The position numbers were made by a program, and so were the translations under genes. The notes beneath the pieces were generated by a model. That model saw only the letters and a program-made list of their open reading frames with translations. It had not been told where the DNA came from and did no database searches. This document shows, one piece after another, positions 1 to 52,998 of a stretch of DNA of 64,000 nt. Numbering within the stretch: the stretch's first letter is position 1; each line of letters opens with the position of its first letter. The DNA comes from Escherichia coli. GTDB lineage: Bacteria; Pseudomonadota; Gammaproteobacteria; Enterobacterales; Enterobacteriaceae. The DNA lies in the NCBI RefSeq assembly GCF_036507355.1, contig NZ_AP027877.1; one strand, 5' to 3'.

Positions 1-61
1 TGGTTGCTGGAAAGAGAAAACCCCCGCACGTTGAGAGGTACAATGAATCGCCACGGATAAT

Positions 62-874: not shown

Positions 875-930
875 CCGACAGAGCAGGCGAACAGGCCAGC
901 AACAGGTGTTGTCACGGATAAAGGCGTACC

Positions 931-1215: not shown

Positions 1216-1357
1216 CTCTCTTTAAGCCATCTTAAATGACTCTGAGGTGTCTGTTAAACCCGTGGCGATTCAACCTGACAACAGAACGGGGGCTAATCTT
1301 GAACCAGAACAATTCAAGAATAGCCGCAAAATGTTGTCATTACAACAAGGCGGCTAT

Positions 1358-18270: not shown

Positions 18271-18450
18271 TGGGAATCATATTCGGCGTCAGGGTCAATA
18301 TAAAGGCATTACTAGCATCGGGATGTACTAATCAACGGAGAGCAAGATCACATCCCTAACAGTATGACCAGATAAGCTATTCATAGTAAAAAAATATATC
18401 CACTAACCATCTAGAAGATAAGTCATGATTTTCACGGTAATGACTCCAAC

Positions 18451-18954
18451 TTATTGATAGTGTTTTATGTTCAGATAATGCCCGATGACTTTGTCATGCA
18501 GCTCCACCGATTTTGAGAACGACAGCGACTTCCGTCCCAGCCGTGCCAGGTGCTGCCTCAGATTCAGGTTATGCCGCTCAATTCGCTGCGTATATCGCTT
18601 GCTGATTACGTGCAGCTTTCCCTTCAGGCGGGATTCATACAGCGGCCAGCCATCCGTCATCCATATCACCACGTCAAAGGGTGACAGCAGGCTCATAAGA
18701 CGCCCCAGCGTCGCCATAGTGCGTTCACCGAATACGTGCGCAACAACCGTCTTCCGGAGCCTGTCATACGCGTAAAACAGCCAGCGCTGGCGCGATTTAG
18801 CCCCGACGTATCCCCACTGTTCGTCCATTTCCGCGCAGACGATGACGTCACTGCCCGGCTGTATGCGCGAGGTTACCGACTGCGGCCTGAGTTTTTTAAA
18901 TGGCGGAAAATCGTGTTGAGGCCAACGCCAATAATGCGTGCACTGGCGCGACAT
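18451..18954 (-). CDS. insB: IS1 InsB (expressed as InsAB' by frameshift)
   Basis: 167-aa ORF recognised as IS1 InsB. Confidence 0.93.
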
Positions 18955-19148
18955 CCGACGCCATTCATGGCCATATCAATGATTTTCTGGTGCGTACCGG
19001 GTTGAGAAGCGGTGTAAGTGAACTGCAGTTGCCATGTTTTACGGCAGTGAGAGCAGAGATAGCGCTGATGTCCGGCAGTGCTTTTGCCGTTACGCACCAC
19101 CCCGTCAGTAGCTGAACAGGTGGGACAGCTGATAGAAACAGAAGCCAC
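18873..19148 (-). CDS. insA: IS1 InsA
   Basis: 91-aa [43 protein letters not shown]... Confidence 0.93.
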
Positions 19149-19504
19149 TGGAGCACCTCAAAAACACCATCATACACTAAATCAGTAAGTTGGCAGCATC
19201 ACCTAAGTCTTGAGCCATTATTTCTATAAAATACATGTTAAATCATATTAGAATAGTTTATACGATAATTCGCTTGAAGAAGAAAAACACTATTCTAATT
19301 CAAACATTTTATATTATCAAGAACCATGGTAATTACAGTTAATTTACAGTATCAGTGATGTGGTTTCCAAAAAAGTATGCCCAAACATTTAAATATATGC
19401 CTTCGATAAATGAACTTTAACTCATCAGAATGACTACCCATCAATACTATTGAGTATATGAAGACAATTCACAGTCCCATCTGGCGAATTTTTCAGATGG
19501 CGAG

Positions 19505-22500
19505 TTAAATATCTTCTGGTGATTCCCCCAGATACATCTTACGGTAATGATACACTTCAAAGAATTTCCCCTTGTCTTTGTAACTACTGATAAAGTAGCA
19601 ATGTGTTAAATACTTTAGCAGGATCTCATTACCTTCAGTTTTGTGAACTTTTGCTCGTTTGGTTTTATCCGCAATCAAATTATATTCTTCCGACACGAAG
19701 GCCATAAGCGCACGATTGATGTATTCAAAAGGCAGTTCTTCACACTCTAAAAGATGATTCAAAAACACAAGTCGAGTGTCATCTTCCGAAACATTAAGAA
19801 GGAGTGCTATACTGACTTTACTATTTAGGCTTATATGGTCGAAGAAACTATTGGTATAGTGCGGCCAGAGAACATTGATGATTGAAACTTTAGTCGTCAA
19901 CTCTATATCGTCATCATTGAGCACAAGCTCAATAAGTTCATTATCGAAATCTTCGTCATCTTGCAGATAAAACTCAATATTATTTTCAAAAACAGCAAGG
20001 TTGTTTCTAATCATAAGCGACAGACACTCATTGAGGCCCTTGCGACGTTGTCCCTCATAAATGCTGAGTACGTCTTCATAGAGCGCTTCTGACAGCAAAA
20101 CTCTGTTGCTCTCACAAAGTGCTTTAAATTTTGTCAGTGGCAGGTCACTGATTACCTTGTCGATACTTACAGGCAGCACGCTGATCAACTGTGCATATAA
20201 CGCGTCTGGCTTATCCGCTGCTGAAATGATGTGATTCACAACATTATCAATAGACTCCTCAGGAACACTGACCTTATGGCCTGAAAGCACCTCTGGATGG
20301 TGAGCAAAAAACGCCCACAATATCTCATCGTCGACATCGGTATACATGTAGTTAAATATGTTATCCCAGTTGGCAGCGACACGCCCATGTTTAAACAAGA
20401 GGTCATAAACAGTGAATGACGCACCCTCAACTACCGATAGCCTGATATTTTCAACTGTCGACAACTGCTGAACTTCAAAATCCATGTTTTCAATTATAAT
20501 TTCTTTGGAACGCTCAGTAGCGTCTGAATTAATTAGTGAAATAACGGATCCAACGCTTTCCTCAGAATGAATGAAATATTCCACAATAAACATCTCAAGG
20601 TTTGTATTTACAGCCTCAATTAAGCATGGGACTTTTTCACTCATAATTAAGGTATATGGATTGCGCGATAGTTCCTCAACATTCTTTCTGTTATTAGAGT
20701 ACGCATTAAACAGTGCAGTGAGGTTATTAATATTAAATACATACAGAAAATTCTCTGCGATAAACTTCACCAACGTACGTTCACTTTCATCGTTAGCTTC
20801 ATTGACGCTATCGAATACAATATTGAGCTCTTTTAATTTTATGCTGAATGACGCAATCTCATCGGGTCGTATGTATGTAAACAACGTAGTGTCTGTTTTT
20901 AATTCATGCAGATAATCCTGAACAGCACTTTGTCGGGTAATGTTTTCTATCAGACCAAAACGAAGTAATGACACAAATAACTGCTGATAAAAATCATCAT
21001 CAGAGTCAATGTCACGGTAAGTACTCATCGCCGCCATCAATTTACCCAATGTCTTTTCATCGCTTAAAATTAAATTAATTAAGTCATGATAGTCATCATT
21101 ACTAAATTCATAAAAATACGTCCGCATAGTGCGAATGATTAAGCCATGTGAGCAATAATTAAATAAATGAATAAAAACATCACGGGCAAAACCAGCTCGG
21201 CAGTTGATCAAAAAGCTAATTATATGCGGATGAAAAATCCCCTCGTAATATTTAAATGATAGCGACTCCATTTTATCTACAACATTGGAAACGTTATTCA
21301 GATGAATATCTTTTAACTCCTCAAAATTCACCTTAGCAGCGACCTTCTGGATATAAACATTATCTGATTTACTTAATGCACCTGCATGGAAGATAGAGCG
21401 ATATTGCATGTAATCCTGCTCAATATATCCATTTGACAACATGAAAAACAACAATTCCATATTGAAATTAATCGCTGAAGGCTTGGATGCATTTTTATTT
21501 CCCTTATCGTCAGTTGATGCAACATTAAGCAACCACTCACTCAATTTCGCTAAGGTTATTTTTTCACATAATTCATGAAGTGATAGGCCATTTCGTTGAT
21601 TAAGAACACGCTGTGTGTTTAAAATATTTTTAGATAATTGCTCAACGGTTTTTTGGTTCTTATCTAAAATAACTGGTGAGCGTTTGTTATATTCACGTAA
21701 ACTCTCAGCTCGCTTATTATGTGGAATTTGGAAGGTATCTTGATATTCATACCCGTTTCTTGAATATGTGATAGCTATTCCGGATGGAAGCTCTCTGTTC
21801 AGAAAATCACAAAACAATGATTCATCCCCACAAAGTTCAACAAAGCTCCAGCTACTCCCAACTTGCCCATACTTATTATGGCTTATATAAAACACTGTAT
21901 TCGATTCAATTTGTTCAGGAAGATAACGCCTTAGAATTTCAACCCTCAGATTTAAACTGGATGTTTGCAATTCCTTTTGTACTTTCACCAACTTTTCTTT
22001 CTGCTGAGAAATCTTTATTTCCAAATCTTTAAAATACACGTCATGTAGCGTTCTCTTAGAGTAAGCATTAACTATTCTGTATAAAAAACCATCCTGATTA
22101 TCAAGCAGAGTGAAATCTTTGGTACATAAATTTTTATACATTATCAAAGAAAATAACTTCACATCAGAAATCTCACCCGTAATTAATTTTTTAAAAATAT
22201 TAAATTCATTTATAACATTATTCATCACCCGCATATCAGTCAGGTAAAGGGATACTTTCTTGAAAAACTGCTCTTTATCTACCGAATTAAAGTTTATAAC
22301 TTTACTACTTAATATGTCATACGCATTCTCACTATCTACTGCAGGTATAATCGGCACAATAAAATCAAAAAATTTTGTTTGTGATTCAGCATCCTTTAAT
22401 AAATCCTCCCTGACTGCAAAAATAAATTTAATCGGTTTCTTTTCCAATAGTCTGGAATTGTTTATCACTTGATTTATTTCACGGAGCTTAATAAAAATAT

Positions 22501-23407
22501 GACCATTGTTTAAACGGTCTAAATCTTCAAATACGACAACTCTATACTTTGTTTTAAGGAAGAAGTAAACAATCTCATCAATATACAAATTTAGCAGAGA
22601 AGCTGTATTCTGTTTTTCCGCCGCAATTTCTGCCTTTAAGAGATTTACTTTATCAAGAGCAATTTTTCTGTCAAAAAATCCTATCCGATAAAAACGAGAC
22701 AGCAGATACCAACAAATGATAAATGATAGCGAACCGATACATCCCCAACGCCATACCGGATGTATCGCAATGAAATGACTCACCGCTGACGGTAATGAAA
22801 ACGTGTTGATAATTTTTTGAGGAAACAACAATGTAGTGACAACGATTGTCAGTATGAGAACAAAAAACAGCAAACAGGATGTTATTAGTATTTGCCCAAC
22901 ACTTCGGGTGTGAATGCGCTCTACCCGCGAATCTGGCAGCGTACCTTTATCCACTTTGTATAAAATCTGCTGTAATATGCTGTATTCAATGCTTTGTTCT
23001 TTTGATAAAGACTCGGAACTTTTTAGTGTCTCATCCGTTTCAAAGTTTGCCAGTGAGATAATCACGTGCTCATCCGCTGGTTTTAAACTTGTAAACCTGA
23101 GCCAATATTTCAGGCGGTGCCACAACCGCTTTCGCCCTTCAATTTTTTTAAGGTATGAGAGAATAACCGAGCTTTTACCCGCGCCATAGGACCCCGTGAT
23201 GGCGATGTTCTTCACATCATCCCGGCTGAGGGCATAATCCAACGCCTTAAAATAGGGTTGATATCCCTCTTTATCAGGATCGACAATCGGTGTTAGCGTT
23301 TGGAATTCCCTTTCCGTTCCTGAATTGTTTTCTGAAGTAACCTGAAGCCTTGCGACTGTTTTATGCAACCAGTCTGCGATCGTTTTCAACCCGAAAGACA
23401 GCGCCAT
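19505..23407 (-). CDS. KAP-family P-loop NTPase with large C-terminal extension (1300 aa)
   Basis: Walker A GSYGAGKSS, two hydrophobic helices inserted before Walker B VVVFEDLDRL (KAP hallmark), then about 900 aa with no recognisable motif; gene visibly AT-rich. Confidence 0.75.
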   Translation of the reverse strand: MALSFGLKTIADWLHKTVARLQVTSENNSGTEREFQTLTPIVDPDKEGYQPYFKALDYALSRDDVKNIAITGSYGAGKSSVILSYLKKIEGRKRLWHRLKYWLRFTSLKPADEHVIISLANFETDETLKSSESLSKEQSIEYSILQQILYKVDKGTLPDSRVERIHTRSVGQILITSCLLFFVLILTIVVTTLLFPQKIINTFSLPSAVSHFIAIHPVWRWGCIGSLSFIICWYLLSRFYRIGFFDRKIALDKVNLLKAEIAAEKQNTASLLNLYIDEIVYFFLKTKYRVVVFEDLDRLNNGHIFIKLREINQVINNSRLLEKKPIKFIFAVREDLLKDAESQTKFFDFIVPIIPAVDSENAYDILSSKVINFNSVDKEQFFKKVSLYLTDMRVMNNVINEFNIFKKLITGEISDVKLFSLIMYKNLCTKDFTLLDNQDGFLYRIVNAYSKRTLHDVYFKDLEIKISQQKEKLVKVQKELQTSSLNLRVEILRRYLPEQIESNTVFYISHNKYGQVGSSWSFVELCGDESLFCDFLNRELPSGIAITYSRNGYEYQDTFQIPHNKRAESLREYNKRSPVILDKNQKTVEQLSKNILNTQRVLNQRNGLSLHELCEKITLAKLSEWLLNVASTDDKGNKNASKPSAINFNMELLFFMLSNGYIEQDYMQYRSIFHAGALSKSDNVYIQKVAAKVNFEELKDIHLNNVSNVVDKMESLSFKYYEGIFHPHIISFLINCRAGFARDVFIHLFNYCSHGLIIRTMRTYFYEFSNDDYHDLINLILSDEKTLGKLMAAMSTYRDIDSDDDFYQQLFVSLLRFGLIENITRQSAVQDYLHELKTDTTLFTYIRPDEIASFSIKLKELNIVFDSVNEANDESERTLVKFIAENFLYVFNINNLTALFNAYSNNRKNVEELSRNPYTLIMSEKVPCLIEAVNTNLEMFIVEYFIHSEESVGSVISLINSDATERSKEIIIENMDFEVQQLSTVENIRLSVVEGASFTVYDLLFKHGRVAANWDNIFNYMYTDVDDEILWAFFAHHPEVLSGHKVSVPEESIDNVVNHIISAADKPDALYAQLISVLPVSIDKVISDLPLTKFKALCESNRVLLSEALYEDVLSIYEGQRRKGLNECLSLMIRNNLAVFENNIEFYLQDDEDFDNELIELVLNDDDIELTTKVSIINVLWPHYTNSFFDHISLNSKVSIALLLNVSEDDTRLVFLNHLLECEELPFEYINRALMAFVSEEYNLIADKTKRAKVHKTEGNEILLKYLTHCYFISSYKDKGKFFEVYHYRKMYLGESPEDI

Positions 23408-30078: not shown

Positions 30079-31272
<1,194 letters not shown>

Positions 31273-31368
31273 CTAAATGAGCGCAAATAACCACAAAAGG
31301 AACTTGATAACTTCCCTTTGTTTGCTTTTAATATCTCCGGTACTAACAACCCGGAGTGAATACATTGA

Positions 31369-31635
31369 GTAACTCAACAGATTCGCAAAAAAAAGCGAAG
31401 TAAGGGAAGTGCTGTTAACTGGCACCGGGCAGATATTGTCGCCGCCCTGCATAAGCGGGGACTTTCCCTGTCAGCTCTCTCCCGGCAACACGGGCTGGCT
31501 TCCAGGACGCTGAATAACGCTTTTGAGCGCCACTATCCGCGGGCGGAAAAGATTATTGCGGAGGCACTGAACACTACGCCCGAAACCATCTGGCCTGAGC
31601 GCTATGCAGGTAGGTCTGTCAAAAACGAAAGCTGA
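31369..31635 (+). CDS. Ner/Nlp-like small DNA-binding protein; no canonical start codon in frame (possible pseudogene)
   Basis: Open frame encodes ...VNWHRADIVAALHKRGLSLSALSRQHGLASRTLNNAFERHYPRAEKIIAEALNTTPETIWPERYAG; no in-frame ATG/GTG/TTG after the stop at 31366. Confidence 0.45.
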   Translation, partial: VTQQIRKKKRSKGSAVNWHRADIVAALHKRGLSLSALSRQHGLASRTLNNAFERHYPRAEKIIAEALNTTPETIWPERYAGRSVKNES

Positions 31636-31647
31636 AGAAAGCATGTT

Positions 31648-32175
31648 ATGTCGACCACCATTACTGAAGTAACGGAATGCTTTGAGTACCTTTTTAGTTC
31701 CCTTTACCGGAAAGCATTTGTCAAAACCCTGCGCCTTAACGAATGCAGTGAACGGGAGTTGCTACCGCTGGTACGCTGCTACCTGCTGGGTTGGTTTGCC
31801 GACAGCGTCTCACCGGAAGTCCGGGGGAAACTGCCCGGCAGTATCTCCGGGCATGGCTATATTGATTTCGTCATTGACGATGTGGCAGTGGAGTTCGCCG
31901 TCCGTAAGCCAGGAGCCGCCCGTTCTGCACTGTCAGCCTCAGTCAACAGCACGGAGGTAAAGAAACTGATGAAGTATGACGGCAAAGCCCTGCTGGTACT
32001 GTTCGATTTTTCTGACACGCCCTATACCGAAGAACAGATTGAATCCTTCAGAAACTGGCCCTCCCTGGGCCGAGGCAACCATCGTAAATCCGCGTTCAAT
32101 GTTGCGTATTTCTTTGTGGAAAAACGCAGCCCGCTGACACCCAGGAAAATCACCAGAAATATCCGCATCCGTTAA
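31648..32175 (+). CDS. Hypothetical protein
   Basis: 175-aa ORF; start 13 nt after the Ner-like stop; no confident family. Confidence 0.55.
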   Translation: MSTTITEVTECFEYLFSSLYRKAFVKTLRLNECSERELLPLVRCYLLGWFADSVSPEVRGKLPGSISGHGYIDFVIDDVAVEFAVRKPGAARSALSASVNSTEVKKLMKYDGKALLVLFDFSDTPYTEEQIESFRNWPSLGRGNHRKSAFNVAYFFVEKRSPLTPRKITRNIRIR

Positions 32176-32228
32176 CGGTAGCGCGCATAACGGATAATGA
32201 AAACGTCAATGAAAGGAGATCACCGAAG

Positions 32229-32747
32229 ATGAGGAAAACCGCTGCCATGTTGCTTCTGGCATTTTCAGGTTGTGCCGGGGCAAAAACACTCCCCGCAGAA
32301 AATTTGCAGGGGCTGTATGAGGCTTATGCCACCCTGAATACCTGCCACCAGTATGGTTACACTGGCGATGAGGCCTTAACTGCACTGGACAAACTTATCC
32401 GCAGCAATCGCTATCAGGATAATAGCGGCAACATCATGACATTAATGAAGGACAATATTAACTATTACCATTCCCTTCAGGACCGCTTTATTCTTGAGCA
32501 GCAATTCAAAAGCGAAGGAATAAACCAGAGCGGTATCCGGCTCCAGATAAAAACCCTCTGCGACCAGATGAACGCCGCTGTTGGTGGGAAGTTGGGTGTG
32601 AAAACCCGTGTTATTTCACCGGATGACCTTCCCACCAGCGCAAAACCTGTTTTTGACAAACCGGTCACTAACAGTGCCCCGGCAATTCCGGAAGACCGAC
32701 CGATGACATGGGACAACAGTCCGGTCCAGGGTATTCCGGTTCAGTGA
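32229..32747 (+). CDS. Putative lipoprotein
   Basis: N-terminal signal peptide with lipobox-like LLLAFSGCAG. Confidence 0.6.
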   Translation: MRKTAAMLLLAFSGCAGAKTLPAENLQGLYEAYATLNTCHQYGYTGDEALTALDKLIRSNRYQDNSGNIMTLMKDNINYYHSLQDRFILEQQFKSEGINQSGIRLQIKTLCDQMNAAVGGKLGVKTRVISPDDLPTSAKPVFDKPVTNSAPAIPEDRPMTWDNSPVQGIPVQ

Positions 32748-32758
32748 GGGGTAACACC

Positions 32759-33073
32759 ATGAAGAAGCATATTATTACCGCACTGCTCATCACAACAGTA
32801 TCCGCTCCGGCGCTGGCAGCGTACCCGGTAAGCCAGCCTGCTCAGGCCGCAGAAGTGATGGTCAGTATATGCCAGCAGCAGCGTTCGGGTATGGACAAGA
32901 ACCAGGCCATCCGTAAAGTCTATGGCACCGTAAGCGACTGGCCCATAGCTTCAACAACTGAAGTTGCTGCTGCGATGGATGAAGGATGGAATTTTGCTGT
33001 ACAAAATCCAGAGATAAGTTGCGACAGAATTTATCTCATGATGATTGACATGCTGGATGGGAAAAAGGATTGA
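32759..33073 (+). CDS. Small secreted protein
   Basis: Start at ATG 32759 with GAGGGG ribosome-binding site; signal peptide MKKHIITALLITTVSAPALAA. Confidence 0.6.
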   Translation: MKKHIITALLITTVSAPALAAYPVSQPAQAAEVMVSICQQQRSGMDKNQAIRKVYGTVSDWPIASTTEVAAAMDEGWNFAVQNPEISCDRIYLMMIDMLDGKKD

Positions 33074-33379: not shown

Positions 33380-34146
33380 TCAGGCGGTGTGGTTGCTATC
33401 ATCTTGCATGAGATGGTTGGCTCGAAAGACCATCATCCCTTTTTGTCGAATAGCGTCAATCCACAAATCTGCCATCCACGAGTTGATGCCATAATGCTGG
33501 ATACAACATTCACGTATCAGCCGGTGTTCGTTCGCAATGGTAGTTGGCATCAAGGCGCTGTCATCCGTATTTAAACACACCGCCAGCGGCCCGCTGCGCA
33601 GGCCGTATTGGTTAAATTTTCCGCCGGTCGCCAACCATTCTGGATTAGGTGGATTCCAGCGAAAAAGCGGGTGTTCGTGATATTTCTCAAACCGACCAAT
33701 ATAAATATTTGAGGTTGGGCAGGCTTCAAACACTAAACCAAGACGGCTGTATTTTTCGGTTAGGTAATCCTGAATGGCTTCATACAGCTTAAGCTCCCCC
33801 TGAGAAATGAAATCCTCATCTTCAGACAGGGGCGACAAATAGCTATCAGTATCGTTAGGACAACAGTTAATGCAAATAATCCGGTTGGCGGGCTCCTTTT
33901 CATGCAAACCGCTGTTGAGATAGCGTTGCCATAAACGATAAGCAGTGACATTTTTCACTGACGGCGTATGATCTTCTTGCAACGCATCCCAGTCAGGGGC
34001 CCATTCCAGCCTATTCGCGCTGACGGACTCCAAGTTAGCATAATCAGGCCAATTGCGGCGCAGCAGCCACGCCTGATAAAGTAAGTTAGGCGTATAGATA
34101 TCTTTAAATATCCGCTGCGACCAGTGATGAATTTTATCGCGCAATT
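33380..34146 (-). pseudogene. Adenosine/AMP-deaminase-like metal-dependent hydrolase, C-terminal fragment truncated by IS1
   Basis: Contains deaminase-like motif region HEHPLFRW ... LAVCLNTDDSALMPTTIANEH; frame stays open up to the IS1 terminus at 34147, no genuine start. Confidence 0.5.
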
Positions 34147-34201
34147 GGTGATGCTGCCAACTTACTGATTTAGTGTATGATGGTGTTTTTGAGGTGCTCC
34201 A

Positions 34202-34477
34202 GTGGCTTCTGTTTCTATCAGCTGTCCCTCCTGTTCAGCTACTGACGGGGTGGTGCGTAACGGCAAAAGCACCGCCGGACATCAGCGCTATCTCTGCTCT
34301 CACTGCCGTAAAACATGGCAACTGCAGTTCACTTACACCGCTTCTCAACCCGGTACGCACCAGAAAATCATTGATATGGCCATGAATGGCGTTGGATGCC
34401 GGGCAACTGCCCGCATTATGGGCGTTGGCCTCAACACGGTTTTACGTCACTTAAAAAACTCAGGCCGCAGTCGGTAA
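34202..34477 (+). CDS. insA: IS1 InsA
   Basis: 91-aa ORF near-identical to the insA of copy 1. Confidence 0.93.
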
Positions 34478-34899
34478 CCTCGCGCATACAACCGGGCAGT
34501 GATGTGATTGTCTGCGCTGAAATGGACGAACAGTGGGGCTACGTCGGTGCTAAATCACGTCAGCGCTGGCTGTTTTACGCGTATGACAGGATACGGAGGA
34601 CAGTTGTGGCGCACGTTTTCGGTGAACGCACTCTGGCCACACTGGAGCGTCTTCTGAGCCTGCTGTCGGCCTTTGAGGTCGTGGTATGGATGACGGATGG
34701 CTGGCCGCTGTATGAATCACGCCTGAAGGGAAAGCTGCACGTTATCAGCAAGCGTTACACTCAGCGCATTGAGCGACATAATCTGAATCTGAGACAACAT
34801 CTGGCAAGGCTGGGACGGAAGTCACTGTCGTTCTCAAAATCGGTGGAGCTGCATGACAAGGTCATCGGGCATTATCTGAACATAAAACACTATCAGTAA
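34396..34899 (+). CDS. insB: IS1 InsB
   Basis: 167-aa ORF near-identical to the insB of copy 1. Confidence 0.93.
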
Positions 34900-35069
34900 G
34901 TTGGAGTCACTACCGTAGAAGTTAAATCAGGAAAATCGAAAAAAATGAAACGTTCGGCATTGTCGTCGAGTTCCGCTTAATGACGTATCCATCCCGTTTT
35001 CCCCTTCACGTTTTCATGTTTGATAGAGGGCAAAATTGAGCCCTCTCAATCAAGATAATGAGTGAAAAC

Positions 35070-38000
35070 CTATACCGTCCAGCTGTTCGACACCACTTCA
35101 GCCTGCTTCAGTATCAGTTCAACTGCATAAGGTGTTTTATCTGGCGGATACTTGTACTTACGCAGCGTCTGACGCACCAGAATACGTAACCGCGCACGCA
35201 CGCTTTCTCGCACCTGCCAGTCTACGGTTGTGGACTGGCGCAATTTTAACGTGACTTCGATAGCCAGTTTCTTAAGGACGTCATCACCCAGCTCCCGTAC
35301 CGCACTTTCGTTTTCTGCCAGCGCATCGTAGAACGCGATTTCGTCCGGGTTTAGCCCCAGCGCTTCATCACGCGCCATCGCTTCCTGAAACTCTTTTGCC
35401 ATCTGGATCAGTTCTTCAATCACCTGCGCAGTTTCAATGGCGCGGTTATTGTATTTGAGAAGCACGGCTTTCAGGCGATCTGAGTATTTCTTCTCCTGCA
35501 CCACGTTGTTTTTGGTGCGGGCATGAATGCCGTCGTTCAGCAGTTTCTCCAGCAACTCGACTGCCAGATTACGCTGCGGCAATTCGCGCACTTCTTCCAG
35601 AAACTCGTCTGACAACAATCCAATATTCGGCTTATCCAGACCCGCCAGCGCAAACACATCATCCACGCCCGTCGCAATAATGGCGTTATCGAGGATTTTA
35701 CCGAGTAGCGTATTTTTCTCTGACTGACTGAATTTTTTGTCGGTTGTCGTCAGCTTGATAATCGCCACTTTCACCGCCGACAAAAACGCGATCTCTTTTT
35801 GCAAGGGTTTAGCTTCATCTAACGTACTGCACAGCGACCAGGCTTTGTTCATCGCCAGCACGACATCGAAAAAGCGCTTCTTACCGTCATCAAGGCCCAG
35901 CACATAATCTGCGGCTTTGAGTAAAAACCGTTGGGGCACCTCTGCAAAACCGGTGTAATCAAACCCGGCGGCGGTTGGTGTTTTGGCAAACATTCCATGA
36001 ATCACATCCAGCTTTTCAAGCAGGATGGAGAACGCTTCATGAGCATCGACTGTCGTCTGTCCTTTACCTTTTGAATCGGTATAAGTTTTCAGCGCCTGTT
36101 TCAGTTCATTGGCGATACCGATGTAATCCACCACTAAACCGCCCGGTTTATCTTTGAAGACGCGGTTGACGCGCGCAATGGCCTGCATCAGATTATGCCC
36201 GCGCATCGGTTTGTCGATATACATGGTATGACAACATGGCGCATCAAACCCGGTAAGCCACATATCGCGCACAATCACCAGTTTCAACGGGTCGTTGAGA
36301 TCTTTAAAGCGCGCTTCAAGGCGTTTTTTGGTTTGCTTATTGTAGATGTGCGGCTGAAGGAATTTATTATCGGAGGCTGAGCCGGTCATGATGATTTTGA
36401 TTTCACCTTTCTCGACGTCATCACTGTGCCATTCCGGGCGTAGAGCCACCAGCGCATCATACAGCTTCACGCAGATCTCACGGCTCATGGCAACAATCAT
36501 TGCTTTGCCATTCATTGTGGCGTTACGTGCCTCAAAATGCTGAACCAGATCGGCGGCCACCTCATTGATACGAGGTTCAGAACCAACCAGTTTTTCCAGA
36601 CGGCTCCAGTCACTTTTGGTTTTCTCTTTCTGATCGGTCTCTTCATCTTCGACCAGCTCATCCACCTGATTAGACAGCGTTTCCAGCTCTTCGTGGTTGA
36701 GGTCGAGTTTTGCCAGGCGCGATTCATAGTAGATAGGCACGGTTGCGCCATCTTCCACCGCATCCTGTATATCGTAGATAGAGACGTAATCACCAAACAC
36801 CGCGCGGGTGTCTTTATCTTCGGAAGAAACCGGTGTTCCGGTAAAGCCCATAAACGACGCATTGGGTAACGCATCGCGCATATGTTTGGCGTAACCGTAT
36901 TTATAAGCGCCAGTCTCCCGGTTCAGCGTGGCGCTAAGACCATACTGGCTGCGGTGCGCTTCATCGGAAATGACGACGATATTGCTGCGCAGGTTTAGCG
37001 CCGGGTGAGTCTGTTCGCCATCAAGCGGGGCAAATTTTTGTACGGTGGTAAAAATAATCCCGCCTGATTCACGGACATTGAGCATCTCGCGGAGCTGGTC
37101 GCGATCGTTTGCCTGTAACGGTTCCTGCTTAAGCAAATCCTGTGCCTGGCAGAAGGTGGCATACAGTTGGCCGTCGAGATCGTTACGGTCGGTCACCACC
37201 ACGATGGTCGGGTTGTTCATTTCCGCTTGTTGTAGCAGTTTTCCGGCGTAACAACACATCGAGATACTCTTACCGGAACCCTGCGTATGCCACACCACAC
37301 CGGCTTTTTTACTGCCTGGCGTGATGTTGCTGCGCAGCGGCAAGTGTTTACCGGTAGAGGCCACAATCGTCGCCGTCACCGCTTCACGTACTGCGTGGAA
37401 TTGGTGGTAAGCGGCAATCTTTTTAATCAGTCGTTTGCCGTCGCTTTCAAACAGGATGAAGTAACGAATGTAGTCGAGCAGCAGTTCGCGGTTAAAGAAC
37501 CCTTTTACTACCGTTTCAAGCTGCCATTCAAACAGCGGTTTGTCGTCTTCATTAGACAGCGTTTTCCACGGCAAGAAGCGCTCTTCGTTCGCGGTGAGAG
37601 AGCCAATACGGGCGTTGTAGCCATCGCTGACCACCAGCGCTTCGTTGCAGATGAACAGATCGCTGAGTTCGTTTTTATAGGTCTGCAACTGATTAAATGC
37701 CGCCCAGATATCGGCATTAGCATCAATCGGGCTTTTCAGCTCAATCACTACTACTGGCAATCCGTTGATATAGCAGATAACGTCCGGGCGACGTACCTGC
37801 TTCGTTCCCTGGATGGCCACCTGATTCACCACCGTAAAGTGGTTATTATTTGGGTGGTTAAAATCCATCAGTAGCGCTTTGTCGTGGATAACTTTGTCAT
37901 CCTGCTTGTACTGCACCGGCACGCCGTCGAGCAGCAGGTGATGGAAGGCTTTGTTACTGACGACCAGATCCGGGCTTTGCGCATGGGCGATACGCAGTAT

Positions 38001-38204
38001 CACCTCATCCAGCACGGCAACCGGGAGATGTGGGTTAATCTTTTGCAACTGCTCCAGTAGCACCGGGCGCAAAAACACATCGTGGAACGACGCACGCAGC
38101 GGATTGTTGCCATCTGGCGCAATATCCGGCCCGTGCAATACTTCCCAGCCCAGTTCAGCAAACCATTGCAGGCTTTGCTGTTCTAAATCGTCTTCGCTCA
38201 GCAT
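35070..38204 (-). CDS. hsdR: Type I restriction enzyme R subunit (HsdR)
   Basis: 1044-aa ORF with helicase motifs (Walker [13 protein letters not shown] box [10 protein letters not shown]). Confidence 0.9.
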
Positions 38205-39391
38205 CAGGTTTCCTCTGTCTCGGTTTCTTCCATTTCTTCGGGCACGTTTGAAATCTCTTTGAGCGCCATATTCAGTGGGGCAATAAAGGGATCTAACGCT
38301 TTTTCAAATGCCGTCAGGTTTACCAGTAGCCAGTCGATCATTTCAGGCCAGTTGGCTTCATCAAGGCTGATGGCCGGGCTGGCATAGGAAATTCGACACG
38401 ATTTTTTACCCGGCAGAGGTTCCCACTTAAGCGCATGGCCAAACGCGTTTTCAATTGCCTCTTTGCGTTCATGTAGCCAGTTAAAAGCAAAGGTATTGCT
38501 CTCTGCGGAAGCTTTGGCAATCCACAGCTCAACCCGAATCTCTTTTTTACTGAAAATCAGGTTATACGACACCGCGCTAATACCAGAGCCCGCACTGATC
38601 CAGTGATCGGTAGAGGGGCTGATATTGTTATATAAGTGGCAGGAGCTGGCTTTGAGGCGCTCCAGCATCTTTGTCCAGAAAGCTTTACGCATTAATTGGA
38701 CTGGCTTTACTCCGCCGCTGACGGATTGTTCTTCCGCCTCTTTTTGCGCCATACCGATCATGTAAGATTCTGCTTCCGGTGTGGGGATAACCTGACGGAT
38801 ATCAACGAATACATCGTCGTTGAACTTATAGGGTTTAACCTTAAAGCACTGTACCCGCAGACCAAATTGCATGAGCCACAGGGCAGTGTTGGTCACCTCT
38901 TTGCGAAAGTTGGCTGCGACCATGATGATTCGCTGTGTACGGCTCTGGTTGATTAAGGCTTCATCCAGCGTTTCATATTCGAGGAATTCAGCAAGCACCT
39001 CTGCCGCCGGGCGATTTTCCTCTGGGTCGTATTTATCCAGATAAAGCTGGAAGATCTGCAGAATTTGCTCTTTACGCAGGTTGGCGCAATACCCGGCATA
39101 TTTGAGCGCTTGCCAGACGACGTCGCGACCTGAATCATCGAGCTTATTCTCGATGATCACCAGATTGCCTTTTTTATCGATAGCCAGCAGGTCAAGGCGC
39201 TCTTTGGTGTCGTCAAAACCGGCGAACTCTTTCTGTATAATCAGTAGTTCATCGTCATTATCGCGAGTTAACGCTTGGGGATTCTGCGCCAGCCATTCCT
39301 GCAGATTGCCACGTTCGGTAAAACCAAGACTACTGAAAGAGACTTCCTGTAGGGAGTGTAAGCTGTTAGTCGGCGTATCAACTTTATACAT
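38204..39391 (-). CDS. PD-(D/E)xK nuclease-like protein embedded between hsdS and hsdR
   Basis: N-terminal D...ExK-like motif ([18 protein letters not shown]); ATG at 39391 overlaps the hsdS stop, and its stop overlaps the hsdR start. Confidence 0.6.
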
Positions 39392-40769
39392 TTTCCACCT
39401 CACTGACTGCCTGTTCTGCTTCCTGCAGGGTAATTTCACCCGAGAGAAGTTTGGGGAGAAGGGTGTCGCGGAGTTGGGTTAGTGATTCAGTTTGTACACT
39501 GAGCGATTTAATCTCATTAAATAAATGTGTACATTTGGCATGAAATAACTCCAATACTTTAGCATCAGGCTGAGCGATTTTAATTCCTGAGAAAGTAGAC
39601 GTATTGACATTTAAAGTTGCACTACCTGCGCTACCTAAAATGTGAAGATGATCTTTCAATCCCAACATACAAAAATAAAGATAATAGAGTAAGGAACTCT
39701 TATGAGGTGTAACAGAATTTATTTGCTGATTGGTATGAGATGGTTCATTGGTGATAGAAACAACACCAATAGTAGCTATACAACTAACACAGATAGAATT
39801 TGCGGGTACAAGTTTTTTTAGTTGCGACTTTGAACCGGCTTCGCTTAAATATTCATTAGTTTTAAGCACAAAAAGTTGCCCATGCATATCTGGTATCTTT
39901 ATGAATGGAACATCACTACCGTAATACTCTGGTTCTTTTTTTGACGGAGTTTTGCCACAAGTAACCTTCCCCATCTCACTAATTGACGCCACCCCCCATC
40001 CTTTAGGAATCGCCCCTAACTCACTGTCCTGCATCGCTGCCGGAAACAGTTCTGCCGTGGCTTTTAACTCGGCATATTGCTCAGGGTGTTCACGCTCAAA
40101 AACCGCCAGCGCATCCGCATCTTTCCCAGAAATGGCGGTCATGGCGGCAAGTGTTGCGTCTGCCTGCGAACCGCCCGCATCCAGTACTGCCATTTTGGCT
40201 TTTACGGGGTCAAAATCAACAAACCAACTTTTGAACAGGGCTTGTGCCATTTGTTCGAGGGTTTGGTTGATGCGATTATTACTATCAATTTTTTTACTTA
40301 ACGTAAAAATTAGCTTTGTACATCTTTTTTGATATTTTAAAGAAGGAATCTTTATTTTGTAGCTCAGCATGGCCCCTTTATCACCTCGAGGCATTTTTGC
40401 GCCCTTGGATGTAAGATGGCTATAATTAATAAAATCATCACTGCTTAAAATCAAATGTAAATATTCACTTGTGAGTTTTTCATGTGTAGTCCTAAATACT
40501 AGCACATCAGGAGAAACACCTCCGTAAAATGTGGCAAACCATACTTTTTTAAAGTACGTTCGAATATTAGAAAATAAAGTATCACCTATTTCAAAAGAAT
40601 TAAATTTGTTGACATCAGGGATGCCTGATGAAATAGTTACACCCTGACGGTCAGGCAACATATTTTCCGTGGAAATATAATTAGTAACATCTATAATAGA
40701 TGCATCACATTTTTTTGTGACTATCTCTACAAAGTTACCTAACTCAGTTTCGATGAACTCAAAACTCAT
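39384..40769 (-). CDS. hsdS: Type I restriction-modification specificity subunit (HsdS)
   Basis: Two target-recognition-domain architecture, AT-rich; start at 40769 overlapping the hsdM 3' end. Confidence 0.88.
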   Translation of the reverse strand: MSFEFIETELGNFVEIVTKKCDASIIDVTNYISTENMLPDRQGVTISSGIPDVNKFNSFEIGDTLFSNIRTYFKKVWFATFYGGVSPDVLVFRTTHEKLTSEYLHLILSSDDFINYSHLTSKGAKMPRGDKGAMLSYKIKIPSLKYQKRCTKLIFTLSKKIDSNNRINQTLEQMAQALFKSWFVDFDPVKAKMAVLDAGGSQADATLAAMTAISGKDADALAVFEREHPEQYAELKATAELFPAAMQDSELGAIPKGWGVASISEMGKVTCGKTPSKKEPEYYGSDVPFIKIPDMHGQLFVLKTNEYLSEAGSKSQLKKLVPANSICVSCIATIGVVSITNEPSHTNQQINSVTPHKSSLLYYLYFCMLGLKDHLHILGSAGSATLNVNTSTFSGIKIAQPDAKVLELFHAKCTHLFNEIKSLSVQTESLTQLRDTLLPKLLSGEITLQEAEQAVSEVENV

Positions 40770-42468: not shown

Positions 42469-42830
42469 GTAAATCCTCGGGGTAGATCGCAGCGAAAGAG
42501 CAACCATGCCTTATCGCAAATTCAGTTTTGGAATGCAGTTCGCAAAATGATACCCGGTACACTTACGATTACAAATGCGCGGTATAAAGAAGTTTGCATT
42601 TGATCGGTGAATAATAGGAAACTCAGTCACTGTTTCGTCTGCAAAATCAGCCATTTCGCCTTCATACGTAGTTCTTCGGTTGAATAGTAAGGTCTATCAT
42701 GCTGCATCGAACGGTGATTTTGATGGATGTTGGAAGTGAGTAGCTGTACGTAATTTTTGATTAAAAGTAATCAAAATGTTGCCAATGGTTATGCTATCGT
42801 GTGTTTTTTGAATATATAACAGGTAAAACT

Positions 42831-43724
42831 ATGTCCTGGCTTAATTCTGTCTTATTGGCGCTTACCTCGGTGCAACCTTATATGGTACCGGCAACCGTTA
42901 TCGGCCTCGTCAGTTTTGCATTCCTCTGTTTTATTTTCTTTTATTTTTTTAGAGCAGTTAAAATTATTAACGGCCTGAAAAAATATACTCAGTCAATTAA
43001 TGGCATCGAAAATAATGAGCCTGGTAATCAGCTTCAGCATCTGCAAAGTTTGTTTGTACAGCCTGAGTTAAAGCACGCCTGGAATGAATTCGAAGAATCG
43101 TTGCACTCACAATATGAACTGGAGGACGGGGAAGAGAAAATCGTCCGTATTAGGGCTACTGCACCGAGCGCCAGTTTCTTCTCGGAGCAACAACTGGTCG
43201 ATATTCCGCTGAACACCGAATTTTTCAAACACCTGCCCGGTATTCTGACCGGTGTGGGGATTATCGGTACCTTCTACGGTCTGATGATTGGTCTCAACCA
43301 CTTCGACCCCAGCACACCAGAGCAGGTCTCCAGCAGCGTCAATAATCTGCTTCGCGATGTGCTGTACGCCTTCCTCGGTTCAGCATTTGCGATTACGTTC
43401 TCTATCCTTATCACCTGGCTGGAGAAATTCTGTCTGGCGAAATGCTACAAATATCTGGAAAAATTCACCGCAGCTCTCGACGCCCTCTATGACAGCGGTG
43501 TTGGCGAGGAGTACCTTGCCTCACTGGTAAAATCCAGTAATGAAAGCGCGACCCAGGCACGCCATCTGAAAGAGAGCCTGGTTACCGATTTACGCGATAT
43601 GCTGCTGCATCTGGCCAACAGCCAGAAAGTGGAAAACGAGCGGCTAGCGACCACCCTCAGCACCACCTATCGCGAAACAGGACAACAGTTTGCCGAGCAA
43701 GTCAGCGGTGCGATTGAAAACTGA
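42831..43724 (+). CDS. MotA/TolQ/ExbB-like membrane protein, 3' end interrupted by IS629-like element
   Basis: Three predicted TM helices; motif LPGILTGVGIIGTFYGLMIGL resembles MotA/ExbB proton-channel proteins; the stop codon TGA is the first 3 nt of the IS. Confidence 0.55.
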   Translation: MSWLNSVLLALTSVQPYMVPATVIGLVSFAFLCFIFFYFFRAVKIINGLKKYTQSINGIENNEPGNQLQHLQSLFVQPELKHAWNEFEESLHSQYELEDGEEKIVRIRATAPSASFFSEQQLVDIPLNTEFFKHLPGILTGVGIIGTFYGLMIGLNHFDPSTPEQVSSSVNNLLRDVLYAFLGSAFAITFSILITWLEKFCLAKCYKYLEKFTAALDALYDSGVGEEYLASLVKSSNESATQARHLKESLVTDLRDMLLHLANSQKVENERLATTLSTTYRETGQQFAEQVSGAIEN

Positions 43725-45153: not shown

Positions 45154-45999
45154 ATGTTACGTGGTTCAGAAAGAAAAGAAGCATTAGCCAGTCTCAAAAG
45201 TGCAACTAACCGTTATGAAGTACAGGCTAAAGACACCCAGGATGAGATCACTGCCCTCTTTCTGTTACGCCAGAAATGCAGTAAGGACCTGATTGCCCGT
45301 GGTGAAAATTTTGTTAATCGACTGGCGAATACACCGAAAGAGTTTGATAAATCCTGGAGCGAATTGAAAGCGGAAATCGCTGAATTTGATAACGTGGTGG
45401 AAAAACTGGAAGAAGAATACCGCGCATCACATATTGGTAAAGGAACGGCTGCTGCGGGGGTTGCCGTTGGGGCGGGGGTCGCCGCATTTGCCCCTACGGC
45501 TGCGCTGGCGGTCGCAACAACTTTTGGTACAGCATCCACGGGTACCGCTATTGCTACGTTAAGCGGAGCTGCCGCAACAAATGCAGCCCTGGCATGGCTC
45601 GGCGGCGGCGCACTGGCTGCGGGTGGCGGTGGCATGTCAGCAGGAAGCGCACTACTGGCTCTGGCGGGTCCAATAGGCTGGGGGATTGGTGCTGTAGGCA
45701 TCGCTGGCGGAACCTTACTAGCCCGTCGCAAAAACGGTAAAATCATTGATGAAGCACAACAGGAAGAGCGCCAGGTTCGCGCAAAAACCAGCGAACTTCG
45801 CGTGATGGAACGTGGTGCGCAAGAACTCAAGATGCTCACATCCGAGCACTATCATGGTACTGAAAGCATTATTGATGTGCTGGAAAAGGCTGCGCCTCAA
45901 GACTATTGCCAGTTTAATACCCATCAGAAAGATCAATTAGGGGCATTGATTAACCATATCAATGCATTATCAAAACTGATCAACAAGAAAATCCAGTAA
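45154..45999 (+). CDS. Hypothetical coiled-coil protein with central Gly/Ala-rich transmembrane segment
   Basis: AGGAG ribosome-binding site; about 100-aa Gly/Ala-rich glycine-zipper-like hydrophobic region flanked by coiled-coil-like sequence. Confidence 0.6.
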   Translation: MLRGSERKEALASLKSATNRYEVQAKDTQDEITALFLLRQKCSKDLIARGENFVNRLANTPKEFDKSWSELKAEIAEFDNVVEKLEEEYRASHIGKGTAAAGVAVGAGVAAFAPTAALAVATTFGTASTGTAIATLSGAAATNAALAWLGGGALAAGGGGMSAGSALLALAGPIGWGIGAVGIAGGTLLARRKNGKIIDEAQQEERQVRAKTSELRVMERGAQELKMLTSEHYHGTESIIDVLEKAAPQDYCQFNTHQKDQLGALINHINALSKLINKKIQ

Positions 46000-47444
46000 T
46001 GAGCATTAACCATAATACAGTTGGCGACCAGCTTATCGGCAGCGCGGTTAACGCCATTAATCAGACCCGCATTGATAATGAACTGTTAAAACTATCGCAG
46101 CAGGATCGTGCATTTGAGTTGGCTGGCGAACAAATGCAAAAGGTGCGTGATTTCATCGCGTCACCGGGTAACATCCTGGGCTCAATGAGCACCAAACACG
46201 GTGAAATTGCTGAGCAGGTAGAAGTTGGCGTGCGCAATGCTCGCCAGGCAATAGAAGAAAGGGTTCAGGATGCCTCTGATCTTAGCGCCACGTTTGACGG
46301 AGTGGGTCGAACCGCTCCGGCGGATTATATGATAGATGGCGTTGACGTGCAGTCAAAGTTTATCAACGGAGTTAATAATAACCTGAACCATGTCCTTCAG
46401 CACATGGAAACCTATCCCAATTTCACCCGGGGAGAATCCTTTTACCATATCCCCAAAGACTCCTGGCAAACGATTCAGGATGTTATTGATGGGAAGCCGG
46501 TGGAGGGCTTGAGCGAAAAAACAATACAGGCTATCAGGGATAAAGTTGCAGAAATTGAAAGTACAACGGGAAGATCCTTTAATGATGTCGTGCGTCCTGG
46601 AGTTTCTGATTACAAAGATGTTCAGTGGGGAAAAATTGACGAAACTCTTGATAAACATGATCAGGAATTAGCGGAACAGAACGAGGCAAAAAAAGCAGAA
46701 ATTATTGACGATCACCAACCCTCCCTAAGTGAAGGCATGCGTGCAACCGCAATGGGAGCCGCTTTCGGTGGAACCTTTGCTCTTGTAACAGGTATATATA
46801 GCAAATACCGTGACGGTAAAAATATATTTCGTGGAGATTTCAACAGACAGGACTGGCAGGATGTCGGCTTAGATACATTGAAAGGTGCCGCTATTGGCGG
46901 TGTATCCGCCGGAGCAATTTATACCCTGACCAATTATGCCTCTCTGGGAGCACCGTTCGCCAGCGCGCTGGTCACTGCCGCTAAAGGTGTAAGCAATCTT
47001 GCTCTCTCCTATCAGCGCGGTGAGATTAATGCTGATGAATTTACCGATCTTGGCCTTATCATCTGCGCGGAATCGGCCATCGTTGGCGCAATGTCTGTCG
47101 CAGGTCAGGCAATCATCCCTGTGCCTGTTTTGGGGGCATTGGTTGGTTCTATCTCAGGGAAGTTTATGGTTACCGTAGCTAAAAATCTGGACAGTAAAGC
47201 ACGCCAATTGCTGGCGAAAAAAATGGAGCAATTTACATGTCGCTTAAGTGAGATTGAGCAGAAAGCACTCAACCGAATTTTGAACGAGTTCGCGGCGCTG
47301 GGTGAGCTTACCGCAGCTGCATTTAGCGTGGAAAACAATCGCCGGTTGCTGGAAGCAAGCATCACGCTTGCCCAAGCCCACGGTGTTGAAGAGGCGAAGA
47401 TAATCAAAAATGCGGATGATCTTGACACATTTATGATGGCGTAG
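45999..47444 (+). CDS. Hypothetical membrane protein (N-terminal soluble domain, C-terminal Gly-zipper TM bundle)
   Basis: Start overlaps upstream stop (TAATG); C-terminal GxxxG/A-rich hydrophobic helices. Confidence 0.6.
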   Translation: MSINHNTVGDQLIGSAVNAINQTRIDNELLKLSQQDRAFELAGEQMQKVRDFIASPGNILGSMSTKHGEIAEQVEVGVRNARQAIEERVQDASDLSATFDGVGRTAPADYMIDGVDVQSKFINGVNNNLNHVLQHMETYPNFTRGESFYHIPKDSWQTIQDVIDGKPVEGLSEKTIQAIRDKVAEIESTTGRSFNDVVRPGVSDYKDVQWGKIDETLDKHDQELAEQNEAKKAEIIDDHQPSLSEGMRATAMGAAFGGTFALVTGIYSKYRDGKNIFRGDFNRQDWQDVGLDTLKGAAIGGVSAGAIYTLTNYASLGAPFASALVTAAKGVSNLALSYQRGEINADEFTDLGLIICAESAIVGAMSVAGQAIIPVPVLGALVGSISGKFMVTVAKNLDSKARQLLAKKMEQFTCRLSEIEQKALNRILNEFAALGELTAAAFSVENNRRLLEASITLAQAHGVEEAKIIKNADDLDTFMMA

Positions 47445-47480
47445 CACTCGAATAAAAATTACAGCAAGGATAAAACCACA

Positions 47481-50840: not shown

Positions 50841-51072
50841 CGCCTCTTTGATAACGCATCATACTGCCAGCGGAATAACTCTCTTCGTCAATACGGCTCT
50901 CGCTGTACGCTTACCCATCTAGAGAGGTTTCAGGTGATTATCGATGTCAGAAGACTGAATGATTCAGTCGTTTACTTTGAGATAGATCAGAGGTTTTTCA
51001 CTACCTGTGTTCATCACATGGCTACGAATAGTAGAATCCAAGCATAAATTAACGCTTAGAAAAGTTGAGCTC

Positions 51073-52272: not shown

Positions 52273-52308
52273 CGCGACGAAGATGATAACCCGTCAGATT
52301 ACCATCGC

Positions 52309-52998
52309 TTGGCTGGATGTTTGGAGACAATGCCGAAACGATTGAGCCATCTCATGGTCTGGTTCTGCAAATCTCTTGATAGCCCCGTGATGGCTTGGTG
52401 GGCTATCCGAAAAATCAGTATTCATCCTCTACTACTACAAAATATTGAACGCAATATTGAGCATTCAACATCAATCCACAAACGCGCTCGTCAACTGTGG
52501 GGCTTAATTCTTGAACATCATAAAGATCCCCGCAATCGTCGTTATGACGTCGATTGGTACGACTTAAAAGCTCGAATTACAAAACAAGGCTGGACAGCTG
52601 GTGTCTTACGAGAATTTCGTAGGGTAATGACACCCCGATTGGAAAAGAAGTTGCCGTATGGATTGGGTGAAGTCAGACCGCCAAGCGGCTCCTGGGAGGA
52701 AATTCAGTTCAGCGAATTTGGCCAATTTGAAGTTGTGTTCACCGAAAGACATGATGACGATTTAGACGTACCTGACAATGTATTACTACAAGTATTTAAT
52801 GCCTTAGAAGCGCAAATAATAATTGCCTCCGGAATGTTAGAGGATATTGATACGCACTACTTTCCAAGCCCAAGTTGTTATCCAGAACGTGCGGTTGAAG
52901 GAGAAGAACATTTCGCGAAAGGTGCGGAGGTATTAACTTGGTTTGTCCAACTTTTAGACCGAGTTGTTATGAAGTGGCCAGAATTGGCTAAGGCATAA
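52309..52998 (+). CDS. Hypothetical protein; same frame as the upstream SIR2 ORF, likely central part of one disrupted gene
   Basis: Frame open from 52273 with no stop; ends at an in-frame TAA (52996). Confidence 0.5.
   Translation: MAGCLETMPKRLSHLMVWFCKSLDSPVMAWWAIRKISIHPLLLQNIERNIEHSTSIHKRARQLWGLILEHHKDPRNRRYDVDWYDLKARITKQGWTAGVLREFRRVMTPRLEKKLPYGLGEVRPPSGSWEEIQFSEFGQFEVVFTERHDDDLDVPDNVLLQVFNALEAQIIIASGMLEDIDTHYFPSPSCYPERAVEGEEHFAKGAEVLTWFVQLLDRVVMKWPELAKA

What the first reader, a model, noticed from the sequence alone, without database searches (positions are those of the whole stretch)
33380..34146. Adenosine-deaminase-like gene cut off by IS1
The frame encoding a deaminase-like C-terminal region (LNTDDSALMPTTIANEH) stays open right up to the IS1 terminus at 34147 and has no real start codon, so the N-terminal part was lost or displaced. 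Adenosine deaminases are effectors of some defence systems (for example RADAR), and the neighbouring genes (Ner-like regulator, lipoprotein) are unusual. The missing partner might lie next to the other IS1 copy if the IS1 pair mediated an inversion.
Basis: partly seen in the sequence, partly recalled or inferred. Interest (0 to 1): 0.4.

Follow-up and report, generated by a model that had tools for sequence, protein, structure and literature searches.

The report
RADAR deaminase gene remnant beside IS1
The stretch is the dead last 30% of rdrB, the adenosine deaminase gene of the known RADAR anti-phage system; an IS1-linked deletion removed the rest of rdrB and its partner gene rdrA, which is ordinary decay of an E. 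coli defence island.

Summary
On the minus strand, 33380-34146 is an open frame that runs without a stop into IS1 (34147-34914) and has no credible start codon. It is not a generic deaminase. It is residues 601-854 of the 854-aa RADAR deaminase RdrB (PADLOC RdrB E=1e-142; 252 of 254 residues identical to intact E. coli RdrB once the TTG/Leu601 start-codon artefact is discounted).

The four zinc-binding histidines and the catalytic glutamate lie in the missing 600 residues. rdrA is also missing.

Twenty-one complete E. coli genomes carry the same island with intact rdrA-rdrB. ET826 and ET881 share this exact IS1 junction and have no rdrB 5' part or rdrA anywhere. The DNA right of IS1 comes from a different island (type I restriction-modification plus Zorya), and IS1 has no target-site duplication. 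This points to an IS1-mediated deletion or fusion, not a simple insertion.

The proposed inversion between the two IS1 copies is not supported. The "unusual" neighbours (a Ner-like regulator and small proteins) are backbone genes of the island family and also occur without RADAR.

Verdict: a known system, inactivated. Low interest. The side observation is that sister genomes show stepwise erosion of this defence island by insertion sequences.

The parts
33380..34146 (-). 3' remnant of rdrB (RADAR adenosine deaminase): codons 601-854, the stop codon, and 2 nt of codon 600. It is a pseudogene fragment. RefSeq annotates it as a 254-aa 'hypothetical protein' in ET826 and ET881.
   Evidence: One search shows 3 nt differences in 767 nt versus intact rdrB (1 synonymous, 2 non-synonymous).
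34147..34914 (+). IS1 element (annotated as IS1X2-like in ET826), 768 bp, with intact insA (34202-34477) and insB' (34396-34899) frames. Its left inverted repeat abuts rdrB codon 600. There is no target-site duplication: the left flank is CGCGCAATT and the right flank is GTAGAAGTT.
34915..35069 (.). Spacer downstream of hsdR that belongs to a different island (integrase-hypothetical-UvrD helicase-hsdR-DUF4268-hsdS-hsdM-zorABCD). In genomes carrying that island, the breakpoint lies 22 bp upstream of the UvrD-helicase gene start.
35070..38204 (-). hsdR, the type I restriction endonuclease R subunit. It is the first gene of the foreign segment fused to rdrB' through IS1.
18436..19203 (-). Second IS1 copy, inverted relative to the first and about 93% identical to it. 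It also lacks a target-site duplication. Neither of its flanks holds any rdrB or rdrA sequence: on the left a transposase remnant, on the right the 3' flank of the Tmn/KAP NTPase gene.
31365..31634 (+). Ner-like (Pfam HTH_35) regulator gene of the island backbone. It is frameshifted in the window and intact in AR_0128.
31648..33073 (+). Three small backbone genes (175 aa, 172 aa, 104 aa), convergent with rdrB. They are conserved in islands that lack RADAR.
30079..31273 (+). IS5-family element (ISKpn26-like) inserted about 90 bp upstream of the Ner-like gene. It is absent from the intact-RADAR island of AR_0128.

Best explanation
The feature is a non-functional 3' remnant of rdrB, the adenosine (ATP/dATP) deaminase gene of the two-gene RADAR anti-phage system. 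RADAR sits as cargo at the end of an integrative defence island between ychF and ycgV in E. coli. In this lineage an IS1-mediated rearrangement removed rdrB codons 1-600 and all of rdrA. The event was either an IS1-adjacent deletion or a recombination through an IS1 copy. It joined the remnant, through IS1, to a segment of another defence island (type I restriction-modification with DUF4268, plus Zorya). Shown here: the identity of the fragment, the breakpoint, the absence of the missing part, the foreign origin of the right flank, and the lack of a target duplication. Inferred: the exact order of events, and that the remnant makes no useful protein.
For: The fragment matches only the C-terminal 250 positions of RdrB profiles. 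It aligns to residues 601-854 of intact RdrB WP_001442952.1 at 251/254 identity as scored, where one mismatch is the TTG start read as Met.

The window is collinear with the AR_0128 island up to the base before IS1; in AR_0128, rdrB continues there and is followed by rdrA.

Twenty-one genomes hold the intact rdrA-rdrB stretch. ET826 and ET881, which share this junction at 100% identity, are not among them.

In the intact homologue, the HxH motif (168-170), HAGED (516-520) and DRIGH (544-548) all lie before residue 601. These correspond to the zinc-binding histidine tetrad H152/H154/H498/H530 and the catalytic E501 of the solved E. coli RdrB (PMC9994260).

Defence needs both RdrA and RdrB, and RdrB works as a dodecamer built through insertions 1-3 (PMC9994260).

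There is no target-site duplication around IS1. The right flank is identical to a different island that normally sits at the yagU/pao locus. The UvrD part of that island is also absent from ET826.

In ET881 the same IS1 copy has a further 17.7-kb deletion starting exactly at its right end. This shows that this copy does produce adjacent deletions.
Against: No ancestor carrying both intact rdrAB and the restriction-modification/Zorya segment side by side was found among the listed hits from 5426 complete E. coli genomes. The path (adjacent deletion versus recombination between two IS1 copies or with incoming DNA) therefore cannot be resolved.

The remnant has only 3 substitutions, so sequence decay alone does not prove it is a pseudogene.

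A promoter-like hybrid site spans the IS1/rdrB' junction, with -35 TTGGCA in IS1 and -10 TAAAAT in rdrB'. Transcription of the remnant is therefore not excluded.
Confidence: 0.95

Rival explanations
1. The gene was split by an inversion between the two inverted IS1 copies (18436-19203 and 34147-34914). On this reading the N-terminal half and rdrA survive next to the other copy or elsewhere, and the population may flip between orientations.
For: Two IS1 copies in inverted orientation bracket a 14.9-kb segment. Neither copy has a target duplication.
Against: Nothing in the window matches rdrB 5' or rdrA. ET826 and ET881 have none genome-wide. The flanks of the two copies are not reverse-complement pairs, as an inversion of two simple insertions would leave them. 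The bracketed segment has the same orientation relative to ychF and ycgV as in genomes with intact RADAR and no IS1. The copies are only about 93% identical.
Confidence: 0.02
2. A simple IS1 insertion into rdrB, with the rest of the gene lying directly on the other side of IS1.
For: IS1 abuts the reading frame precisely.
Against: The other side of IS1 is the hsdR downstream spacer of a different island. There is no 8-9 bp target duplication.
Confidence: 0.01
3. The 254-aa product is a functional stand-alone protein, for example a truncated deaminase or a dominant-negative or decoy fragment, expressed from a hybrid IS1/rdrB promoter.
For: The frame is intact, with only 2 amino-acid changes. A promoter-like site spans the junction. 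RefSeq annotates the frame as a CDS.
Against: All four zinc-binding histidines and the catalytic glutamate are missing. The only start is the native Leu601 TTG, with no ribosome-binding site visible in the sequence. The predicted hybrid promoter would start transcription downstream of that TTG. Sister genome ET729 has lost the fragment altogether. RdrA is absent.
Confidence: 0.02

Closest known systems
RADAR anti-phage system (rdrA-rdrB): Gao et al. 2020, cited from my own knowledge; structure and mechanism in Duncan-Lowey et al. 2023, PMC9994260
   Same: The fragment is 99% identical to the C-terminus of an rdrB annotated in 21 complete E. coli genomes, sits in the same island position, and has the same downstream neighbours.
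   Different: Only residues 601-854 remain. The catalytic histidine tetrad and the glutamate are gone, and so is rdrA, so this is a remnant and not a working system. This RdrB subfamily (PADLOC PDLC02218, 854 aa) is only distantly related to the solved E. coli RdrB 8FNW (E=1.7e-15 over short stretches).
IS1 adjacent deletions and IS1-created hybrid promoters (classical IS1 biology, from my own knowledge)
   Same: The IS is retained. One junction is fixed while the other flank varies between sister genomes (window/ET826 versus ET881). There is no target duplication. A -35-like hexamer in the IS1 end faces outward.
   Different: Nothing unusual was found. The promoter is only a consensus match.
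Housekeeping adenosine deaminase (Add, Pfam PF00962)
   Same: The C-terminal CPTSN and NTDD motifs are shared.
   Different: The Pfam score of 21.7 is below the gathering score of 27, and only 34 residues match. The true family is RdrB.

Membership tests
RdrB (RADAR adenosine deaminase) | Significant match to RdrB-specific profiles | tested here: met
   PADLOC PDLC02218 gives E=1.2e-142 and 474.9 bits. NCBIfam NF041744 gives E=2.1e-96 and 324 bits, below the full-length cutoff of 800 because only 30% of the protein is present.
RdrB (RADAR adenosine deaminase) | Full-length protein of about 800-900 aa covering the whole profile | tested here: not met
   Only profile positions 606-853 of 855 are matched. 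The fragment equals residues 601-854 of 854.
RdrB (RADAR adenosine deaminase) | Zinc-binding histidine tetrad and catalytic glutamate (EcRdrB H152, H154, H498, H530, E501) | tested here: not met
   The equivalents in the intact homologue are at 168/170, 516, 548 and 519, all upstream of residue 601 and therefore deleted.
RADAR system | An adjacent rdrA (AAA+ ATPase) gene in the same operon | tested here: not met
   The window has no rdrA. ET826 and ET881, which share the junction, have none in their genomes. Intact islands have rdrA directly upstream of rdrB.
RADAR system | Phage defence and ATP-to-ITP deamination activity | not testable with these tools
   This needs an experiment. It is predicted to be absent from the missing catalytic residues and the missing RdrA.
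IS1 | 768-bp element with terminal inverted repeats and insA/insB' frames | tested here: met
   Element 34147-34914 has the ends GGTGATGCTGCCAACTTACTGAT and ATCAGTAAGTTGGAGTCACTACC, a 91-aa insA and a 167-aa insB'. It is annotated as IS1X2 in ET826.
IS1 | 8-9 bp target-site duplication, as left by a simple insertion | tested here: not met
   The flanks are CGCGCAATT and GTAGAAGTT. This is expected after an adjacent deletion or recombination.

The most novel reading that the evidence does not exclude
The window and three sister genomes from one sampling site (ET826, ET881, ET729) capture a stepwise, IS-driven erosion of one defence-island array. RADAR, Tmn, type I restriction-modification, Zorya and a Dsr1-like SIR2 gene are each lost or broken by independent IS1- or IS3-adjacent deletions or by a nonsense mutation. 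A bolder version is that the retained RdrB C-terminal fragment (which starts about 50 residues after the last catalytic histidine, where EcRdrB has trimer-forming insertion 3, plus the last core strands) is expressed from the IS1 hybrid promoter and interferes with incoming RADAR assemblies.
Probability: 0.04. Interest if true: 0.4.

Novelty: already known. Interest (0 to 1): 0.1.

Why it matters
It matters little on its own. It corrects the RefSeq label 'hypothetical protein' (WP_306460771.1) to an rdrB pseudogene fragment, and it warns that defence-system counts for this strain should not include RADAR. As context, the locus is a clear example of how insertion sequences trim and fuse defence islands on short timescales. 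That is useful for studies of defence-system turnover but is not new in principle.

Tried and rejected
I made four checks that came back negative.

(1) I searched the window for the missing rdrB 5' part and rdrA with blastn against the intact AR_0128 locus. Nothing was found.

(2) I searched 5426 complete E. coli genomes with the missing 4.3 kb. Twenty-one genomes matched, none of them the two that share the junction.

(3) I tested the inversion idea by comparing the four IS1 flanks for swapped or reverse-complement target duplications. There were none.

(4) I looked for a genome with intact rdrAB next to the hsdR/Zorya segment, as a possible ancestor. The two listed hit sets do not overlap, although 6 records were not listed.

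I rejected the housekeeping adenosine deaminase reading because the Pfam hit is below threshold. I rejected the idea that the neighbours are RADAR accessories because the module occurs without RADAR.

I did not run structure prediction or the large protein-database searches. The identity of the fragment was already unambiguous.

Full report
**Observation.** On the minus strand, 33380..34144 is a 254-codon open frame. Bases 34145-34146 complete the remainder of one more codon, and at 34147 the left end of IS1 begins (GGTGATGCTGCCAACTTACTGAT). IS1 is 768 bp (34147-34914) and has intact insA and insB' frames. The frame continues for 30 codons into IS1 before a stop, with no ATG, GTG or TTG in that stretch. 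The TTG that the ORF lister uses as a start is the native Leu601 codon of the parent gene.

**Identity.** Pfam sees only a sub-threshold adenosine deaminase match (E=1.2e-4, 21.7 bits against a gathering score of 27). Defence-specific profiles are unambiguous. PADLOC RdrB PDLC02218 gives E=1.2e-142 over profile positions 606-853 of 855. NCBIfam NF041744, "antiviral RADAR system adenosine deaminase RdrB", gives E=2.1e-96 over positions 599-850 of 850. The NCBIfam score of 324 bits is below the full-length cutoff of 800. This explains why RefSeq calls the frame "hypothetical protein" in strains ET826 and ET881. BLASTP against the 854-aa RdrB of E. coli AR_0128 aligns the fragment to residues 601-854 at 251/254 identity. 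At the DNA level there are 3 differences in 767 nt: 1 synonymous and 2 non-synonymous.

**What is missing.** In AR_0128 and 20 other complete E. coli genomes the same island continues from this point with the rest of rdrB and then rdrA. The window is collinear with that island (99.5-99.6% identity) up to the base before IS1, apart from an IS5 insertion at 30079-31273. The window has no match to the missing 4.3 kb. ET826 and ET881, whose junction is 100% identical to the window, are not among the 21 genomes that hold it.

In the intact homologue the HxH motif (168-170), HAGED (516-520) and DRIGH (544-548) all precede residue 601. From the alignment to the solved E. coli RdrB (8FNW), these correspond to the zinc-binding tetrad H152/H154/H498/H530 and the catalytic E501 described in PMC9994260. 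The same paper reports that defence depends on both RdrA and RdrB, and that RdrB acts as a dodecamer with RdrA heptamers docked over its active sites. A fragment that holds only the last core strands (CPTSN, NTDD) and has no RdrA partner cannot be a working RADAR. This last step is an inference from established knowledge, not a test.

**How it arose.** IS1 has no target-site duplication: the flanks are CGCGCAATT and GTAGAAGTT. The DNA to its right (34915 onward) is not rdrB. It is the spacer downstream of hsdR from a different integrative island: integrase, hypothetical gene, UvrD-like helicase, hsdR, DUF4268, hsdS, hsdM, zorABCD. That island sits at the yagU/pao region in more than 40 other E. 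coli genomes, and there the breakpoint lies 22 bp upstream of the helicase gene. ET826 lacks the helicase part as well.

The junction is therefore a one-sided fusion of two defence islands through IS1, not one half of a reciprocal exchange. That this IS1 copy produces adjacent deletions is shown directly by ET881. ET881 keeps the rdrB'-IS1 junction, but its IS1 right end abuts window position 52573, a further 17.7-kb loss. Whether the original event was an adjacent deletion or a recombination between two IS1 copies cannot be decided. No genome among the listed hits carries both intact rdrAB and the restriction-modification/Zorya segment.

**The inversion proposal.** A second IS1 (18436-19203, about 93% identical, inverted) lies 14.9 kb to the left. 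Its flanks are a transposase remnant and the 3' flank of a Tmn/KAP NTPase gene, not rdrB. The four flanks show no swapped or reverse-complement duplications. The bracketed segment has the same orientation relative to ychF and ycgV as in IS1-free genomes with intact RADAR. The proposal is not supported. Only read data could exclude a minor flipped subpopulation.

**Neighbours.** The Ner-like regulator is real: Pfam HTH_35 matches the intact AR_0128 copy at E=6e-28. In the window it is frameshifted. This gene and the three small genes after it (175, 172 and 104 aa) have no RADAR-related family hits. They belong to the island backbone: the same module, together with RadC, DUF2787, YeeU/CbtA, DUF905, an integrase and AlpA, occurs next to mutS in KL53 and ET490 without any RADAR. 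RADAR is cargo at the end of that backbone.

**Context.** The window is a defence-island array between ychF and ycgV. It carries Tmn, the RADAR remnant, a type I restriction-modification system with DUF4268/PDC-S11, a zorA stub, PDC-M09, a Dsr1-like SIR2 pair, and Olokun. Sister genomes show independent IS-adjacent deletions:
- ET826 and ET729 lost Tmn next to the left IS1, with different endpoints.
- The window lost the zorA 3' part through zorD next to an IS3.
- ET729 lost everything from just downstream of the rdrB stop codon to that IS3, including the remnant itself.

**Verdict.** This is a known system (RADAR) in an inactivated, truncated state caused by ordinary IS1 activity. Interest is low and the novelty rating is "already known".

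Noticed in passing
window 42801-43721 (+), IS3 from 43722: This is a zorA stub: only the first ~295 of 727 ZorA profile positions remain. Compared with ET826, the zorA 3' part, zorB, zorC and zorD (7.2 kb) are deleted exactly at the left end of an IS3-family element. The Zorya system is therefore also dead in this strain.
   Followed up: partly
window 51007-52998 (+), base 52271: The SIR2-domain gene (Dsr1-like N-terminal part) carries a TGG-to-TAG nonsense change at codon 422 relative to ET826. It is one of only two substitutions in 15.6 kb. The Dsr1-like C-terminal part is a separate ORF at 53104-54882.
   Followed up: partly
window 18436-23407, compared with ET826 (L001) and ET729 (L007): The Tmn/KAP P-loop NTPase gene (19505-23407, PADLOC Tmn E=4e-222) is intact here and in ET881. 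In ET826 and ET729 it is deleted from the left IS1 end to two different endpoints (~23150 and 23397), so these were independent IS1-adjacent deletions.
   Followed up: partly
ET881 locus L009 21715/21716 = window 34914|52573: In ET881 the same IS1 copy that truncates rdrB has a further 17.7-kb adjacent deletion. It removes hsdRMS, the zorA stub, IS3, PDC-M09 and part of the SIR2 gene.
   Followed up: yes
ET729 locus L007 10977/10976 = window 33276|43722: In ET729 an IS3-adjacent deletion removed the rdrB remnant, IS1, hsdRMS and the zorA stub. The IS3 is left about 100 bp beyond the rdrB stop codon.
   Followed up: yes
window 38204-39439 (-): A DUF4268 / PADLOC PDC-S11 gene (E=3.5e-173) sits between hsdR and hsdS of the type I restriction-modification operon. 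It is a candidate defence gene embedded in that operon.
   Followed up: no
window 45154-50003 (+): The PDC-M09A/B candidate defence pair (E=2e-120 and 3e-214) is followed by an 840-aa ORF that has no PADLOC or NCBIfam hit.
   Followed up: no
window 55853-59843 (-): An Olokun-like pair is present: OloB E=5.5e-58 and OloA E=7.5e-77. In ET826 the oloA-like gene is interrupted by an IS5 (ISKpn26-like), but it is not interrupted in the window.
   Followed up: no
window 44-1272 and 63128-64000: There are two copies of an IS3-family element (38-nt imperfect terminal inverted repeats; transposase NF033516 E=8.5e-101). The right-hand copy begins where similarity to ycgV of other strains stops, so ycgV appears to be interrupted.
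   Followed up: partly
window 34160..34131 (-): A promoter-like hybrid site spans the IS1/rdrB' junction: -35 TTGGCA inside the IS1 left inverted repeat, an 18-nt spacer, and -10 TAAAAT in rdrB'. It matches 10 of 12 consensus positions. This is a consensus match only, and it would start transcription downstream of the TTG.
   Followed up: no
window 30079-31634: An IS5 (ISKpn26-like) element is inserted about 90 bp upstream of the Ner-like HTH_35 gene, and that gene also carries a frameshift. The island's regulator is therefore hit twice.
   Followed up: partly
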